A stretch of 64,000 nucleotides of DNA from Chloroflexota bacterium (lineage in GTDB: Bacteria; Chloroflexota; UBA11872; UBA12225), in NCBI GenBank assembly GCA_034437795.1, contig DAOTTI010000189.1, forward strand, positions 16,479 to 80,478, given 5' to 3'. Positions within the stretch are counted from its first letter, which is position 1. Every line of letters starts with the position of its first letter. Made by a program: the position numbers and the translations under genes. Positions 22,434 through 28,330 of the stretch are shown piece by piece. Under the pieces are notes generated by a model, which saw only the letters and a program-made list of their open reading frames with translations, was not told where the DNA came from and made no database searches.

Positions 22434-23789
22434 TCACGTGTGCACCGCGTCCGCCTCGTGGGAGCGCATCATCGTCGGGTCATTGCGCCGCGGGTCCTGC
22501 GGGGCCGCCTTCATCTCATCGCCGTCGGCCATCATGGCCATCGGCATCGGCTGGCCGCCGTCGGGCCCTGAGGCGGGGCGAGGCTGGTTGGCGGCGCAGG
22601 GCGTGCCGAACCTGGGCAGGCCGAACGGCAGATGAGTCCAGCCCCGCGCGAGAATGTGCAAGTGGTTGGCTGGCTCAGTGCGGCCCTTCGAGCCCCACAT
22701 GGTGAAGGAGCGGGCGTTGGCGTAGTGGCAGACGAGCGCGCGCCGGAAGCGGTTCCTGGAGCGGTTGCTGTGCGAGCGGTGCAGGATATGGCCGCCGAAG
22801 AAGATCACGTCGCCCGGCTCGGCAATGCCCGGCACCTCGCGCCCGGGATACTTGGCGGCGATCCGCGAGAGCGTGTTCAGCTCAGTGTCCATGTGGCTGA
22901 CGTGCTCCACCACCATCAGGTCACGCAGATTGGAGTGGTTCTGCGTGATGCGATCCTCGGTGGGGTAGATGGGCTCGTGCTGCGAGCCCACGGTGAACCA
23001 GACGCACCCGTTCTCCTCATCCGCGCGGTCCACGGCGATCCAGGCCCCGCAGAGCGTATCCGGGTAGGTGGGGATGTAGTAGGAATCCTGGTGGTAGCCC
23101 TGGCCGGCCCCGCCCGGCGCCTTGATGAAGAACATCGTCTGCATCGCCATCACGTCCGGGCCGATGAGCGCCTCCAGCACGTCCAGCACCCTGGGGTGGA
23201 GCAGATAGCGCTCCTCGATCTCCAGGTGCCGGTGGAGCATGTGGATGCGCAGGTAGCGGCGCTCGATCTCTTCGATCGACATGCCGGGGGGCGGGGGCTC
23301 CAGACCGGGGACGTTGACGCGGCCGAACATGAGGTCTTCGGAATGCCGGATCAGCTCCTCGATCTCGTCGGAGTTGAGCAGACCCTTCACGATGAGAAAG
23401 CCCTGCTCGTGGAAGCGGACGTACTCTGAGACCGAGACGTGGTAGCGCTCCCGCTGCTCCGAGAAGTCGGTCGCAATGCGTTCAGGGCGCAGCCATTGCT
23501 GCGCTACCGGCTCCGCCGGCGCCGGCCCTACCGGCGTAGCGCCGATCACCGACCTTGGGGCTGGTGCCGGCAGGGGCGGCGCCAGCACGCCGGGGGCGCC
23601 ATTCCTGCGCGCCGGCCGTGACGACGGCGGGGCGCCCATCGCGCCCATGGCCTCGCTCGCGCTCATGCTCCCCAAAGCGCCCGTGGTCTCCATCGCGCGC
23701 ATGGCCTCCATGGCGCCCATGGCAGCACCACTCGCCGGCTCACTCCCTGTCGTACCAGACATGTCCTGCCCTCCGCGTTCGTCTTTCAT
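22434..23789 (-). CDS. Phytanoyl-CoA dioxygenase (PhyH) family Fe(II)/2-oxoglutarate oxygenase with Met-rich N- and C-terminal extensions.
   Basis: HQD...H facial triad region (GQGYHQDSYY). N-terminus AMGAMEAMRAMET, and C-terminus MPMAMMADGDEM. The true start among the several Met codons is uncertain. Confidence 0.7.
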   Translation of the reverse strand: MKDERGGQDMSGTTGSEPASGAAMGAMEAMRAMETTGALGSMSASEAMGAMGAPPSSRPARRNGAPGVLAPPLPAPAPRSVIGATPVGPAPAEPVAQQWLRPERIATDFSEQRERYHVSVSEYVRFHEQGFLIVKGLLNSDEIEELIRHSEDLMFGRVNVPGLEPPPPGMSIEEIERRYLRIHMLHRHLEIEERYLLHPRVLDVLEALIGPDVMAMQTMFFIKAPGGAGQGYHQDSYYIPTYPDTLCGAWIAVDRADEENGCVWFTVGSQHEPIYPTEDRITQNHSNLRDLMVVEHVSHMDTELNTLSRIAAKYPGREVPGIAEPGDVIFFGGHILHRSHSNRSRNRFRRALVCHYANARSFTMWGSKGRTEPANHLHILARGWTHLPFGLPRFGTPCAANQPRPASGPDGGQPMPMAMMADGDEMKAAPQDPRRNDPTMMRSHEADAVHT

Positions 23790-24160: not shown

Positions 24161-24275
24161 CGGGCACGCCCGGCGAGTAGACTGAGCGAAGCCGGCGCCC
24201 ACCGTGTCCCTTGGCCCCACCAGACGCCGGCCAGGGAGAGGCGCCCGAGCTGGCTCAGCCGTGGAGGCCAGTCAG

Positions 24276-24674
24276 ATGCCGCCTGCCCCGCCTGATCTCG
24301 TCATCCTGCTACGGTTGGTGGTGGCCCTGGCGCTTGGAGCGGCCATCGGCTGGGAGCGCGAGGAGGCGCGCAAGGCGGCCGGACTGCGCACGCACATGCT
24401 GGTCGCCCTCGCCGCCGCGCTGTTCGTCGCTGTGGGAGACGCGTTCGTGGACCGGTTCGCGGCGCAGGACGCCCAGTCCGTGCTCCGTGCCGACCCCGTC
24501 CGCATCATTGAGGCGATCGTCACCGGGGTGAGCTTTCTGGGCGCGGGCGTGATCTTCGTCCGCCGGGGCCGCGAACGAGTGATCGGGCTCACCACGGCCG
24601 CGTCTCTGTGGGCCACGGCTAGCCTCTGTTCTTGCGGTACTATCGCCGCATGCAGACGTACGCCGGCACTGTGA
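24276..24674 (+). CDS. MgtC/SapB-family membrane protein (short form).
   Basis: [10 protein letters not shown] and [12 protein letters not shown] motifs. About 133 aa from the MPPAPP start. The 3' end overlaps the start of the next gene. Confidence 0.65.
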
Positions 24675-26275
24675 ACGCCCCAGAGTTTCCAGCGGGCCTG
24701 GACTGGATCAACACCAGCCGGCCCATCCGTCTGGCCGACCTGCGCGGGAAGCTGGTCATCCTGGACTTCTGGACCTTCTGCTGAATTAACTGTCTGCATG
24801 TGCTCCCTGGTCTGAGGGAGATTGAGCAGCGCTACCCCGATCGCGTGGTCGTGATCGGTATTCACTCGGCCAAGTTCCCCGAGGAGCAAGCGACGGAAGC
24901 GGTGCGCCAGGCCGTGCGCCGGCACAACGTCCGGCACCCTGTAGCGAACGACCGGCACTTCCAGGTCTGGCAGCAGTACGCCTGCCGCGCCTGGCCGACG
25001 CTCATGTTCATCGACCCGCGGGGCAAAGTGATCGGCCGGCACGAGGGTGAGTTCGAGACGGATCAGCTGGTGCGCGTGGTGGACGCGATGCTGCAGGAGT
25101 TCGAGGCCGCCGGCTGGCTCCAGCCGGGCGTGATTGAGTTCGGTGTAGCAGGGGCGGCGGCCCAGCCGGCGCCGGAAGGGACCGGCCCGCTGGCCTTTCC
25201 AGGCAAGGTGGCGGTGGACGGCAGGGGGCGCGGGCACGTCCTGATCGCCGACAGCAACCACCACCGCCTGGTGATCACGGGCCTGCAGGTGATGGACGGG
25301 GCGGTCCACCACATCGTGGGCGGTCCCGAGCCAGGCCTGGCCGATGGCCCGCCGGACCAGGCCCGTTTCAACTGGCCCCAGGGTATTGCCGTCGATCCGC
25401 GCACCGGCGTGGTCTTCATTGCGGACACGGAGAACCACTGCATCCGGCGTCTTAGCCCGGATGGAGGGCGGGTGACGACAATCGCCGGCACAGGGCGCCC
25501 GGCCCGCATGCGCGGCACGGGCGGTCGCGCGCAGGAGACCGATCTCTCCAGCCCCTGGGACCTGGCCTTTCTCCCCGCTCCGGATGCGGGGCCGCCGACG
25601 GCGCCAGGCTCGCACCAGGACCCCCAAGACGACCGCGGGCTCCTGTTGATCGCCATGGCGGGCACGCATCAGATCTGGGCGCTGGACCTGGCGGCAGGCA
25701 CGATTGGCCCGTACGCGGGCACTGGGCGCGAGGCGCTGGTCGATGGCCCGCGGCGCGAGGCCTGCTTCGCGCAGCCTTCCGCGCTCTCGCTCGATAGCGA
25801 GAACTGGCGCCTCTTCGTGGCCGACAGCGAGACGAGCGCCATCCGCGTCATCGACCTCGCCTCGGGAGAGGTGTCCACCCTCATCGGCGCCGGCCTGTTT
25901 GAATTCGGTGACGTGGATGGCCCGGCGCAGGAGGCGCGTCTGCAGCACCCGCTGGGCGTTTGCTACTGGCCGGACGACCCGCGGGGCTCGTCCGTGCTCA
26001 TCGCCGACACCTATAACCACCGCATCAAGCGCCTGGACCTGGCGCGCCAGGAGGTGCGCGCCTTCGCCGGCGCCGGACCTCCGCCCGGATATGTCGATGG
26101 CCCCGCGCCCTCGGCCAGGTTCAACGAGCCGGGCGGGCTGGCGCTGGCGAGAGGCAGGCTCTTTGTGGCCGATACGAACAACCATCGGGTGCGGATGGTG
26201 GACCTGGCATCCATGGCGGTCAGCACCCTGGCGGTCGACGAGCGCCGGCGCGCGCACGATGAGAAGGAAGAATGA
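24650..26275 (+). CDS. Thioredoxin-like (redoxin) plus NHL-repeat protein (NHLRC2-like). It has an in-frame TGA at 24782-24784 at the first Cys of the CxxC motif (FC-TGA-INC). Either a selenoprotein (UxxC) or a nonsense-disrupted gene.
   Basis: The frame is continuous from ATG 24650 ([54 protein letters not shown]...) through to 26275. Thioredoxin-fold motifs lie upstream of the TGA and six NHL blades downstream. Confidence 0.7.
24803..24820 (+). promoter_or_regulatory. SECIS-like hairpin (ctccc-uggucuga-gggag) starting 19 nt 3' of the in-frame UGA. The apical loop contains GGUC.
   Basis: Direct reading. A GGUC apical loop at about +28 from the UGA resembles the E. coli fdhF bSECIS geometry, as I recall it. 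Confidence 0.45.
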
Positions 26276-26389: not shown

Positions 26390-27145
26390 TCAGGCCACCT
26401 GGGTAGCCACCAGATCGACCTGCAGGCGGATCTCGTCGACCACTGACAGAACCACCGGCACGCGCGGGGGAACCATCCCAAAGTGGCCGAATGGGAACGA
26501 GGTGGTGGCCGTGCCGGTCAGGCTCGGCCCGTCGCGTCTGGCCCTGGCGTCCCAGGTAATCTCCCGTTGCACACCGTGGATGGTCATTAGGCCGGTCAGC
26601 GTGAAGCTGTATTCCCCTGCTTCCGGCAGGGGATTGGGCAGCCCGCCGGCATGCGTGGGCACGAACTCGGCCAGCGGGTACTGGTTCACCGCCAGGGTGT
26701 TGCGCTTGATGTACCCGTCGCGCAGGGCATCGTCGGTACGCAGGTCCCGTAGATCGACCGTGATCTTCGACTGCTCGGCGACAATACTCCCGTCGGCGCG
26801 CAGCACCAGCTGTCCGGTGACGGCGGTCGTGGTGCCGACGGCGTCGGTCGGGAATTGCAGGCGGGCCAGCTGCTCGCGAACGCGGAAGGTAGCCTTTGAC
26901 TGGCCTGGGACTACCTGGAATCGGACGCTGCCCGCAGGCGGAGGAGCGGTCTGGACCGTCGGTGAGGGCTGAGGAGATGGGGCAGGCGTCTGCGCCGGCT
27001 GGGCAGGGCCGGTGGTCTGCGCCCGGGCGGGAGTGGGCGATGCTTCTGGCACGGCCGCCCGCCCGCCGACCGTACCGCAGGCGGCCGGCAAGGGAGCGAG
27101 AAGGAGCAAGAGCGCTGGGCGGCGCCGCAACGGCTGTCCAGCCAT
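26390..27145 (-). CDS. YceI-family (polyisoprenoid-binding) lipoprotein.
   Basis: Signal peptide with LAPLPAACG lipobox-like. YceI-like beta-barrel motifs (KATFRVRE...TGQL). Confidence 0.75.
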   Translation of the reverse strand: MAGQPLRRRPALLLLLAPLPAACGTVGGRAAVPEASPTPARAQTTGPAQPAQTPAPSPQPSPTVQTAPPPAGSVRFQVVPGQSKATFRVREQLARLQFPTDAVGTTTAVTGQLVLRADGSIVAEQSKITVDLRDLRTDDALRDGYIKRNTLAVNQYPLAEFVPTHAGGLPNPLPEAGEYSFTLTGLMTIHGVQREITWDARARRDGPSLTGTATTSFPFGHFGMVPPRVPVVLSVVDEIRLQVDLVATQVA

Positions 27146-27559
27146 ACTCGCCGATACAGCGCAAGCCTAGCAGACGAAGGTGCCCCGCCTACAACCGGCG
27201 CCGCGCCGCCGGCTCTCGCACCGGTACCGGCACGCGTGCGGGCACCGGCCTCGGCTCGGAGCCGGGGAACAGGAGACGGCGCAGCAGGTCAAGCAGACGC
27301 TCCGGCCAGGTCTGCACCTGGGCCATCGCCGGCTCCAGCGACGTGCGGGCGGGCGGCGCGCCGGGCATCCAGCTAGATGAGTTGAGGTGGCCAGCAAATC
27401 GCATCATACCGCTCCCGTTGAGGTGCCCCGCCATAGCATACGGCGCGGAGGCCGGTCTGGTTGCCTGGCTAGGCCTCTTGGCAGCGACCCATGCAGAGCG
27501 CGTGCCGCCGGCGTCGGCTTAACAGTACTTTGGCGCGATGTAGGCTTTCCGGAGTTCGT

Positions 27560-28330
27560 CGGAAGAGGCTAGCCCTGCAAATCGTCGTTGGTGACCTCGA
27601 GAGCGGCGCGCTGGAAGCGTTGGTGGCGCAGGTCCGAGACGTGTTCCCGCGGTCCCAGGCAGGGGTGCGGAAGGGGACGCAGTACCTGCTGGGATTGGCC
27701 TCGGACCGGCCGCGCAAGAACGCGGCGCGGATGGCGGAGGCCCTGCCCGGCGTGACGCTGGAGCAGCTGCAGCCGTTCCTGGTGGACCGCCCCTGGGGCG
27801 CCGAGGCGCTGGACCGGCGCCGGCTCGACCTGGTGGGGCTGGGCTGGTCGGCCCCCACGACCGACGCGCTCTGGATCGACGACACGTTCGACGACACGGA
27901 GCTGCCCAAGCAGGGCAAGCAGTCGGTGGGGGGCAGCTGGGCACTCCTACGGGTTGCTGGGCACTCCTGCGGGTTGCTGGGCACTCCTACGGGTTGCTGG
28001 GCACTCCTACGGGTTGCTGGGCACGACCGCCAACGGCCGGCCCATCGTCACGGCGCACGACACCGATCCGTGGCGCGACTGGCCGGTGGGCACCCCGCTC
28101 TCCCTCCCCGAGCGGTGGGCCGACGACGGCGCGCGGCGGCGGGCGGCGCGGGTGCCAGAGGACGTCGTCTTCCAGACCAAGCCGGCGTGGGCGCTGGGGC
28201 TGCTCGACCGGGCGCAGGCGGCGGGGGTGGCGCACGTGGCGGTGACGGCCGACAGCGCCTACGGCGACATCCCCGACATCCTCGCCGGCCTGGAGGACCG
28301 TGACCCCGTGACGAGCCCTCCGTCGTGCAG
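27560..28330 (+). pseudogene. IS701-family (DDE) transposase remnant, frameshifted by a 20-nt tandem repeat expansion.
   Basis: N-terminal block [43 protein letters not shown]...[20 protein letters not shown] matches the IS701 Tnp N-terminus. The continuation ...[52 protein letters not shown] is in another frame, after the repeats at 27937-28025. Confidence 0.7.
27937..28025 (+). repeat. 20-nt tandem repeat (ctgggcactcctRcgggttg) x about 4 inside the IS701 transposase remnant.
   Basis: Direct reading. The length is not a multiple of 3. Confidence 0.8.

What the first reader, a model, noticed from the sequence alone, without database searches (positions are those of the whole stretch)
24650..24820. 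In-frame UGA on the first Cys of the CxxC motif of a thioredoxin/NHL protein, with a GGUC-loop hairpin 19 nt downstream: candidate selenoprotein with a bacterial SECIS
The translation from ATG 24650 is [65 protein letters not shown]. It continues in the same frame into a 491 aa NHL-repeat ORF.

The TGA (24782-24784) sits where thioredoxin-like NHLRC2-type proteins have the first cysteine of the CxxC redox motif (usually FCCINC). That would give a UxxC centre, the classic way Sec replaces the nucleophilic Cys.

The hairpin ctccc-UGGUCUGA-gggag lies immediately 3' (24803-24820). It has GGUC in its apical loop at about +28 from the UGA, which resembles E. coli fdhF-type bSECIS elements as I recall them. 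The upstream Cys codon is TGC, so a single C>A change could equally be a nonsense mutation. The two readings make different predictions.
Basis: partly seen in the sequence, partly recalled or inferred. Interest (0 to 1): 0.8.

Follow-up and report, generated by a model that had tools for sequence, protein, structure and literature searches.

The report
Unannotated selenocysteine gene, NHLRC2-like thioredoxin protein
The in-frame TGA is almost certainly a real selenocysteine codon with its own recoding hairpin, in a bacterial relative of human NHLRC2 and plant SOQ1; databases annotate this gene only as a truncated protein, and current lists of selenoprotein families do not name the family.

Summary
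ATG 24650 reads in frame through TGA 24782-24784 into the 491-aa ORF that ends at 26275. The TGA replaces the first Cys of the CxxC in F-C-U-I-N-C. The hairpin lies at 24803-24820.

The selenocysteine reading is strongly supported by comparison:
- Of 156 related loci, 46 carry TGA at exactly this codon. They come from Chloroflexota, Dormiibacterota, Fervidibacter and NC10. The other loci carry TGC or TGT, except one with TAA.
- The 38 codons upstream are under purifying selection.
- A hairpin at +22 to +39 accompanies the TGA forms. 39 of 42 meet the published bacterial SECIS model, against 1 of 108 Cys forms. The hairpin shows compensatory changes, including synonymous CCG>CCT with CGG>AGG in the window.
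- TGA is also the ordinary stop of this gene and its neighbours.

The protein is a close homologue of human NHLRC2 (E 2e-113) and plant SOQ1.

Gene callers and RefSeq annotate only the truncated downstream ORF. A 2026 list of 119 prokaryotic selenoprotein families has no NHL/NHLRC2 entry.

Not tested: selA, selB, selC and selD in the source genome.

Verdict: a genuine selenoprotein gene, mechanistically conventional, probably a previously unlisted Sec family.

The parts
24650..26275 (+). Full-length selenoprotein CDS. It encodes 541 aa with Sec at residue 45, and its stop is TGA 26273-26275. It is an NHLRC2/SOQ1-type protein with a thioredoxin-like domain and an NHL beta-propeller.
   Evidence: Translation. 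Pfam. PDB phmmer: NHLRC2 6gc1 E 2e-113 and SOQ1 7djj E 4e-108. The N-terminus M-x-x-YAG-x-V-x-APEFP matches full-length Cys homologues.
24782..24784 (+). In-frame TGA read as selenocysteine (U45). It is the first, nucleophilic position of the UxxC redox motif.
   Evidence: The same codon is TGA in 46 related loci, TGC or TGT in 109, and TAA in 1. It aligns with the second Cys of CCINC in NHLRC2.
24779..24793 (+). Redox motif C-U-I-N-C: TGC TGA ATT AAC TGT.
24803..24820 (+). bSECIS upper hairpin. The 5' arm is CUCCCU (24803-24808), the loop is GGUCUG (24809-24814), and the 3' arm is AGGGAG (24815-24820).
   Evidence: Energy -9.3 kcal/mol, 24-nt spacing from the UGA, G in the first two loop positions. 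The register (+22 to +39) is the same as the hairpin in 33 of 41 distinct TGA homologues. Covariation is shown.
24794..24829 (+). Possible lower stem, CUGC 24794-24797 paired with GCAG 24826-24829, enclosing the hairpin. It is predicted in the window only.
   Evidence: MFE fold. It is not conserved across relatives, so it is unsupported by comparison.
24650..24781 (+). The 44 codons upstream of the Sec codon, encoding the N-terminal part of the Trx-like domain. Gene callers output this as a separate 44-aa mini-ORF.
   Evidence: 58-76% aa identity to 10 of 11 TGA-bearing homologues compared and pN/pS 0.19-0.46, similar to the downstream region (the 11th, L051, is thrown out of register by an indel). 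Mini-ORFs of 44-45 aa are called in L001, L165, L166 and L168.
24800..26275 (+). The truncated ORF as it stands in public databases (P0001, 491 aa, starting at GTG). It lacks the redox motif.
25184..26233 (+). NHL-repeat beta-propeller domain, about residues 179-528.
   Evidence: Aligned to the NHLRC2 propeller 6g7w residues 9-358, E 1.2e-67. Pfam NHL E 2.7e-31.

Best explanation
The gene 24650-26275 encodes one 541-residue selenoprotein. UGA 24782-24784 is decoded as selenocysteine by the standard bacterial route. In that route the hairpin at +22 to +39 (24803-24820) acts as a SECIS element that SelB·GTP·Sec-tRNASec binds while the ribosome is at the UGA. That step is inferred from the known mechanism, not shown here.

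Sec45 is the N-terminal, nucleophilic residue of a U-x-x-C centre in a TlpA/DipZ-type thioredoxin-like domain. By homology with the NHLRC2 structure, this centre sits in the cleft facing a six-bladed NHL propeller, which is the presumed substrate-binding platform.

The likely chemistry is thiol/disulfide exchange. Sec45 would attack a substrate disulfide or an oxidised sulfur species, and Cys48 would resolve the intermediate as a selenenylsulfide. This is inferred.

The protein has no N-terminal signal or membrane segment and no C-terminal domain of the SOQ1/NHLRC2 type, so it is probably a cytoplasmic two-domain reductase. This too is inferred.
For: 1. Sec/Cys pair at the same codon. TGA occurs in 46 loci, including 17 of 80 GTDB species representatives, from Chloroflexota (UBA2235, Dehalococcoidia, Thermomicrobiales), Dormiibacterota, Ca. 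Fervidibacter sacchari and NC10. TGC or TGT occurs in 109 loci. Three further TGA loci from close relatives were fetched later, two of them the same gene on two contigs.
2. About 40 of the nearest database homologues (58-78% identity) are N-terminally truncated at the same place, while Cys forms are full length.
3. The upstream 38 codons are conserved as protein, with pN/pS 0.19-0.46 in 10 of 11 comparisons.
4. The hairpin is tied to TGA. MFE averages -12.1 kcal/mol in Sec loci against -4.9 in Cys loci (Mann-Whitney p = 3e-18). 33 of 41 Sec loci have 7 of 7 pairs in register, against 0 of 108 Cys loci. 39 of 42 Sec against 1 of 108 Cys pass the published bSECIS constraints (model).
5. Covariation. 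90% of cells are paired, against 69% or less when partners are slid. 4 of 7 pairs change on both sides, and 0 of 500 shuffles reach the observed score. The window itself keeps pair 27:34 through two synonymous changes, CCG>CCT (Pro) and CGG>AGG (Arg).
6. The closest Cys orthologue lies in the same PhyH/YceI synteny and has lost the hairpin, although it encodes the same L-P-Q-L-R peptide as the canonical TGA forms (the window has G for Q).
7. TGA is the normal stop of this gene, MgtC, PhyH and YceI, so the genetic code is not globally reassigned.
8. The same TGA is present in three assemblies.
9. Dehalococcoidia, the class of eight of the TGA loci, are reported to hold 46-49 selenoprotein genes (BSepDB paper).
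Against: No selA, selB, selD or tRNA-Sec was found in the 64-kb window or in the flanks of any TGA locus. The rest of the source genome could not be examined, so the decoding machinery is assumed.

The window's hairpin differs from the family consensus: a 6-bp stem with a 6-nt loop instead of 7 bp with AGUU. Its fold alone is not significant against shuffles (z = -1.67).

There is no experimental evidence of Se incorporation for any member. Rfam has no matching model.
Confidence: 0.9

Rival explanations
1. The TGA is a nonsense mutation (TGC>TGA) and the gene is a recent pseudogene.
For: A single C>A change from the common TGC codon would produce it. One relative (L044) carries TAA at this codon, so inactivation at this site can occur or be mis-sequenced. 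No Sec machinery was seen in the window.
Against: TGA is at the same codon in 45 other sequences across several phyla. Both flanks are under purifying selection. The structured element co-occurs with TGA and not with Cys codons. The window keeps that element through compensatory synonymous changes. The frame is intact over 541 codons.
Confidence: 0.03
2. The functional product is only the downstream ORF, started at GTG 24800 or nearby. This would be an NHL-propeller protein without the redox centre, as databases annotate it, and the upstream 44 codons would be a separate or non-functional mini-ORF.
For: Gene callers and RefSeq annotate it this way: P0001, and WP_326522700.1 in Fervidibacter.
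Against: The called starts differ between orthologues (MLPQ.., MHILPQ.., MRELE..), and they fall on ordinary internal codons of the L-H-V-L-P segment that is also present in Cys forms. A start there would cut the Trx-like domain after its active-site helix. The upstream 44 codons are conserved as the N-terminal part of that domain.
Confidence: 0.04
3. The UGA is read through by another route, either near-cognate Cys or Trp insertion or a lineage-specific code change, not as Sec.
For: The Sec machinery is not demonstrated for this genome.
Against: TGA terminates this gene and its three neighbours. The position is Cys in all non-TGA homologues apart from the single TAA locus L044, which is the hallmark of Sec. 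The hairpin fits the SelB-type bSECIS model, with a G[G/U] loop motif and 24-25 nt spacing.
Confidence: 0.02

Closest known systems
Human NHLRC2 (PDB 6GC1/6G7W) and Arabidopsis SOQ1 lumenal region (PDB 7DJJ)
   Same: [quoted passage not shown] The window protein aligns over residues 8-528 with E 2e-113 to NHLRC2 and E 4e-108 to SOQ1, and the motif is aligned residue for residue. The motif lies in the cleft next to the propeller (PMC6107167).
   Different: The second Cys of the motif is Sec here. The C-terminal beta-stranded domain, which carries the Cys pair and Msr activity proposed for SOQ1 (bioRxiv 10.1101/2024.11.01.621559), is absent, because the protein ends 13 residues after the propeller. 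There is no HAD domain or transmembrane helix.
[quoted passage not shown]
   Same: It has a UxxC centre in a TlpA/AhpC-TSA-type thioredoxin fold, Cys-containing homologues are widespread, and a bSECIS lies immediately downstream.
   Different: The listed families are defined by the Trx-type domain alone, and no entry mentions an NHL propeller or NHLRC2. Whether large-scale searches have silently binned these genes under one of those names could not be checked, because the representative accessions are not retrievable here.
E. coli fdhF-type bSECIS / published bSECIS consensus model
   Same: A hairpin starts 19 nt after the UGA, the loop starts with GGU, and the spacing is 24 nt, within the 16-37 nt range. 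It meets all four model constraints.
   Different: The family's usual element is a 7-bp stem with the tetraloop AGUU. No conserved bulged U was found, except in L011. NC10-type members and two metagenome contigs (L143, L154) use unrelated hairpin sequences at a slightly shifted register.

Membership tests
Bacterial selenoprotein gene (Sec-UGA with bSECIS) | In-frame UGA aligned with Cys in homologues (Sec/Cys pair) | tested here: met
   109 loci have TGC or TGT and 46 have TGA at the same codon.
Bacterial selenoprotein gene (Sec-UGA with bSECIS) | TGA-containing homologues in other organisms, with conserved coding sequence on both sides of the TGA | tested here: met
   17 of 80 GTDB species loci from at least four phyla. 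Upstream pN/pS is 0.19-0.46 in 10 of 11 comparisons.
Bacterial selenoprotein gene (Sec-UGA with bSECIS) | bSECIS model: 3-9 nt apical loop, 4-16 bp stem, G in the first two loop positions, 16-37 nt spacing, MFE <= -7.5 kcal/mol (PMC13188914 Fig. 2) | tested here: met
   The window has a 6-nt loop GGUCUG, a 6-bp stem, 24-nt spacing and -9.3 kcal/mol. 39 of 42 Sec forms pass against 1 of 108 Cys forms.
Bacterial selenoprotein gene (Sec-UGA with bSECIS) | Structure supported by compensatory substitutions | tested here: met
   4 of 7 pairs have double changes, 90% of cells are paired against 69% or less in slid controls, and 0 of 500 shuffles reach the score.
Bacterial selenoprotein gene (Sec-UGA with bSECIS) | selA, selB, selC (tRNA-Sec) and selD present in the same genome | not testable with these tools
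   None is in the 64-kb window or the locus flanks.
Bacterial selenoprotein gene (Sec-UGA with bSECIS) | Selenium incorporated into the protein (75Se labelling or mass spectrometry) | not testable with these tools
   This needs an experiment.
NHLRC2/SOQ1 family | Trx-like domain with a CC(I/V)NC motif | tested here: met
   The motif is C-U-I-N-C, aligned to CCINC of 6gc1. Sec replaces the second Cys.
NHLRC2/SOQ1 family | Six-bladed NHL beta-propeller directly after the Trx-like domain | tested here: met
   Residues 179-528 align to the 6g7w propeller, E 1.2e-67. Pfam NHL E 2.7e-31.
NHLRC2/SOQ1 family | C-terminal beta-stranded domain with a conserved Cys pair | tested here: not met
   The protein ends at residue 541, 13 residues after the propeller. 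The match to the SOQ1 chain stops at residue 500 of 667.
Selenoprotein families with NCBIfam models (for example ResA-like WAxxUGC NF041054) | Score above the curated cut-off | tested here: not met
   NF041054 scores 24 bits against a cut-off of 300. No NCBIfam model reaches its cut-off.
Listed Trx-fold UxxC selenoprotein families (PF00578, cd02966, PF08534 entries of PMC13188914) | Sequence-level relationship to the families' representative proteins | not testable with these tools
   Only accession numbers are given and the sequences cannot be fetched. At the domain level, AhpC-TSA E 2.3e-10 and Thioredoxin_8 E 1e-13 are met.

The most novel reading that the evidence does not exclude
Sec-containing NHLRC2/SOQ1-type proteins form a widespread prokaryotic selenoprotein family, found in Chloroflexota, Dormiibacterota, Armatimonadota and NC10. 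The family has not been recognised as such: it is absent by name from the 2026 list of 119 families, has no NCBIfam model, and is annotated as truncated in RefSeq. Because natural Sec/Cys exchange marks catalytic redox residues, it would identify the second Cys of CCINC (Cys90 of human NHLRC2) as a true catalytic nucleophile. The biochemical function of human NHLRC2, the gene mutated in FINCA disease, is still undetermined. Ca. Fervidibacter sacchari PD1 is cultured and would be a system in which to test this.
Probability: 0.55. Interest if true: 0.6.

Novelty: new member of a known kind. Interest (0 to 1): 0.55.

Why it matters
Three things follow in practice.

1. Annotation. At least 42 of the 121 nearest database proteins are truncated artefacts that lack their active site. 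This includes a RefSeq protein from a cultured organism with a complete genome. A simple rule would repair them: FWT[FY]C-TGA-[IV]NC followed by a hairpin at +22 to +39.

2. Enzymology. Replacement of Cys by Sec at one position, repeated across lineages (at least 6 state changes on a rough tree), is classical evidence that the residue is a catalytic redox nucleophile. NHLRC2 showed no activity in insulin-reduction assays and its biochemical function is called undetermined. The Sec forms argue that the CCINC centre is a working redox site, and they offer natural hyper-reactive variants for substrate trapping.

3. SECIS evolution. The family gives a clean example. One hairpin sequence is shared across phyla. 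A lineage-specific remodelling in the window is kept paired by synonymous compensatory changes. Three sets of members (NC10 L037/L042, L143 and L154) carry unrelated hairpins.

The mechanism itself is textbook bacterial Sec recoding, so this is not a conceptual surprise.

Tried and rejected
- Rfam, at gathering threshold on the whole window and at E <= 10 around the site, gave no relevant family.
- ARAGORN found no tRNA in the window and no tRNA-Sec in 46 loci. A 90-nt 'tRNA-Pro(ggg)' just after the gene in L003 has no Rfam support and is taken as a false positive.
- tblastn with E. coli SelA, SelB and SelD against the window and all loci hit only L036 (a Cys-form locus) and weakly L005. Nothing was found near any TGA form.
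- A GC3-based scan of the window for further in-frame TGAs flanked by coding-like sequence found no other convincing candidate. The few other flagged sites had the composition of antisense frames and were not followed up.
- Attempts to extend beyond the window by looking up the proteins at its ends failed, because there was no exact gene-call match.
The truncated form was found instead.
- The DNA for Cys orthologue P0002 was unavailable, so P0004 (L164) was used.
- The first MAFFT/NJ run timed out and was repeated with faster settings. The resulting tree is rough.
- Literature searches for NHL/NHLRC2 together with selenocysteine or SECIS returned nothing relevant, and nothing for Fervidibacter with selenocysteine.

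Full report
**1. The observation**

- ATG 24650 opens a frame giving [44 protein letters not shown], then TGA at 24782-24784. The frame then continues as [18 protein letters not shown]... to a TGA stop at 26273-26275.
- The downstream part is the 491-aa ORF 24800..26275.
- The hairpin is at 24803-24820. It is best drawn as CUCCCU / GGUCUG / AGGGAG.
- With U replaced by C, Pfam finds a Thioredoxin_8/AhpC-TSA domain (residues 33-127) and NHL repeats.
- Folded on its own, the 54 nt after the TGA are not exceptional against shuffles (z = -1.67). The window alone could therefore not decide between Sec and a nonsense mutation.

**2. Relatives decide it**

A protein search returned the window's own gene call as a 491-aa protein (P0001). 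About 40 of the nearest homologues (58-78% identity) all cover only about 89% of the query. They start at assorted internal codons just after the CxxC (MLPQLRE.., MHILPQLRE.., MRELE..). More distant homologues, and two at 68-69% identity, are full length with FWTFCCINC. This is the signature of a stop codon at a conserved place.

I fetched 80 loci from GTDB species genomes and 80 from metagenomes and read the codon aligned with 24782-24784:

| Codon | Count |
|---|---|
| TGC | 88 |
| TGT | 21 |
| TGA | 46 (including the window and the identical L001) |
| TAA | 1 |

The TGA forms include:
- Chloroflexi bacterium UBA2235;
- eight Dehalococcoidia;
- a Thermomicrobiales MAG;
- Ca. Dormiibacterota;
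- the cultured Ca. Fervidibacter sacchari PD1 (complete genome);
- NC10 bacterium CSP1-5.

Three more loci from close relatives, fetched later (L166, L167, L168; L166 and L167 carry the same gene on two contigs), also have TGA.

The 38 codons upstream of the TGA are 58-76% identical at the protein level between the window and 10 of the 11 TGA homologues compared, with pN/pS 0.19-0.46, similar to the downstream region. The 11th, L051, gave 34% identity and pN/pS 1.11 because a one-codon indel puts the ungapped comparison out of register. The upstream segment is therefore translated as part of the same protein.

TGA is also the ordinary stop codon of this gene and of the neighbouring MgtC, PhyH and YceI genes. 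A global reassignment of UGA is excluded.

The identical TGA and hairpin occur in ENA and JGI assemblies, which argues against an assembly error.

**3. The hairpin is a SECIS element**

In nearly all TGA forms, nucleotides +22 to +39 (T of TGA = 1) read yUUCCGC-AGUU-GCGGrAr, a 7-bp stem with a tetraloop. The window's hairpin occupies exactly the same 18 positions.

Sec and Cys forms compare as follows.

| Measure | Sec forms | Cys forms |
|---|---|---|
| Mean MFE of nt 13-51 | -12.1 kcal/mol | -4.9 kcal/mol (Mann-Whitney p = 3e-18) |
| All seven pairs in this register | 33 of 41 distinct | 0 of 108 |
| Pass the published bSECIS constraints | 39 of 42 | 1 of 108 |

The published constraints are a 3-9 nt loop, a 4-16 bp stem, G in the first two loop positions, 16-37 nt spacing, and MFE <= -7.5 kcal/mol (PMC13188914). 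The window passes with a 6-nt loop GGUCUG, a 6-bp stem, 24-nt spacing and -9.3 kcal/mol.

On an ungapped alignment of 39 distinct sequences, 90% of cells are paired, against 69% or less when the partners are slid. Four of seven pairs show changes on both sides, and no shuffle out of 500 reaches the observed covariation.

Examples of compensatory change:
- Pair 24:37 is U-A in most members, C-G in the window and others, and G-C in Fervidibacter.
- Pair 27:34 is G-C everywhere but U-A in the window. That pair is produced by two synonymous changes, CCG>CCT (Pro) and CGG>AGG (Arg).

The closest Cys orthologue (L164, 68% identity, same PhyH/YceI synteny) encodes the L-P-Q-L-R peptide of the canonical TGA forms with other codons (the window itself has L-P-G-L-R), and it keeps only 3 of 7 pairs.

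NC10 members (CCAGAGC-UGGAC-GCUCUGG), L143 and L154 carry different hairpins. On a rough NJ tree these sit in separate Sec clades, with at least 6 Sec/Cys state changes overall.

The G[G/U] at loop positions 2-3 is present in most members (AGUU, the window's GGUCUG, NC10's UGGAC) but not in L143.

**4. What the protein is**

Against the PDB, the protein matches:
- human NHLRC2 (6gc1) over residues 8-528 with E 2e-113;
- the lumenal region of Arabidopsis SOQ1 (7djj) with E 4e-108.

The CUINC aligns with CCINC. In NHLRC2 this motif lies in the cleft between the Trx-like domain and the propeller (PMC6107167).

For SOQ1, a preprint reports that the Trx-like domain passes reducing power to a C-terminal domain with methionine-sulfoxide reductase activity. 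The same preprint says that NHLRC2's biochemical function is undetermined (10.1101/2024.11.01.621559).

The window protein lacks that C-terminal domain, and it lacks any signal or membrane segment. I infer a cytoplasmic Trx-NHL reductase in which Sec45 is the attacking nucleophile and Cys48 the resolving residue. The Fervidibacter homologue has a hydrophobic N-terminal segment, so localisation differs between lineages.

**5. What could not be shown**

No selA, selB, selD or tRNA-Sec lies in the window or in any fetched flank. The remainder of the source genome was out of reach. The decoding machinery is therefore assumed.

The only indirect support is that Dehalococcoidia are reported among the richest selenoproteomes. 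No member has experimental evidence of Se incorporation.

**6. Novelty**

- The 2026 inventory of 119 prokaryotic selenoprotein families has no NHL/NHLRC2 entry. The nearest are generic Trx-fold UxxC families.
- Full-text searches for NHL or NHLRC2 together with selenocysteine or SECIS found nothing relevant.
- The NHLRC2 structure paper surveyed prokaryotic homologues and does not mention Sec.
- No NCBIfam model reaches its cut-off.
- None of the 121 database homologues contains U, and 42 lack the motif altogether.
- RefSeq annotates the Fervidibacter gene as a 442-aa protein starting after the TGA (WP_326522700.1).

It remains possible that large homology-based surveys have counted these genes under a generic name.

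Mechanistically this is standard bacterial Sec recoding. I class it as a new member (family) of a known kind, of moderate interest.

Noticed in passing
L044:1486-1488 (Thermomicrobiales MAG JBPCRG010000234.1): This locus carries TAA instead of TGA at the Sec codon, yet the downstream hairpin CUUCCGC-AGUU-GCGGAGG is fully intact. It is either a very recent inactivation (a G>A transition) or a sequencing error.
   Followed up: partly
L007:9881-11461 (Ca. Fervidibacter sacchari PD1, NZ_CP130454.1): RefSeq annotates only a 442-aa 'thioredoxin-like domain-containing protein' (WP_326522700.1) that starts after the TGA. The full-length reading adds the redox motif and a hydrophobic N-terminal segment (MWRILTATAIITMILISVGMML), so this homologue is probably exported or membrane-anchored, unlike the window's.
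   Followed up: partly
window 24204-24674 (+) versus 24650: The MgtC-family gene overlaps the start of the selenoprotein gene by 25 nt, which suggests co-transcription or translational coupling. MgtC is absent from this position in the Cys orthologues (L164 and the P0002 contig), where PhyH lies directly upstream.
   Followed up: partly
window 22434-23789 (-) and 26390-27145 (-); L002, L083, L084, L164: A PhyH-family dioxygenase lies upstream and divergent in the window and in both Cys orthologues (L164 and the P0002 contig). A YceI-like gene lies downstream and convergent in those loci and also in the TGA relatives L002, L083 and L084, where PhyH was not detected within 4 kb. Further upstream, a DUF5069 / ketoacyl synthase / MaoC dehydratase / DUF5069 cluster recurs in L165 and L166.
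   Followed up: partly
L168:6857-9698: In a relative on a 553-kb contig, the selenoprotein gene directly follows a CsoR-type metal repressor (PF02583) and a copper-type P-type ATPase (HMA plus E1-E2 ATPase) on the same strand. This hints at a link to copper or oxidative stress in that lineage.
   Followed up: no
window 27491-28303 (+): A DDE_5-family transposase ORF lies about 1.2 kb downstream of the selenoprotein gene. It is also present in L001 and L165.
   Followed up: no
L036:10575-12476: A clear SelB homologue (31% identity to E. coli SelB over 647 aa, E 5e-81) lies about 8 kb from a Cys-form (GCINC) member in a Pyrinomonadaceae MAG. Some Sec-using organisms therefore keep the Cys form of this protein.
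   Followed up: no
L003:10632-10721: ARAGORN calls a 90-nt 'tRNA-Pro(ggg)' immediately after the gene. Rfam finds no tRNA there, so it is probably a false positive.
   Followed up: yes
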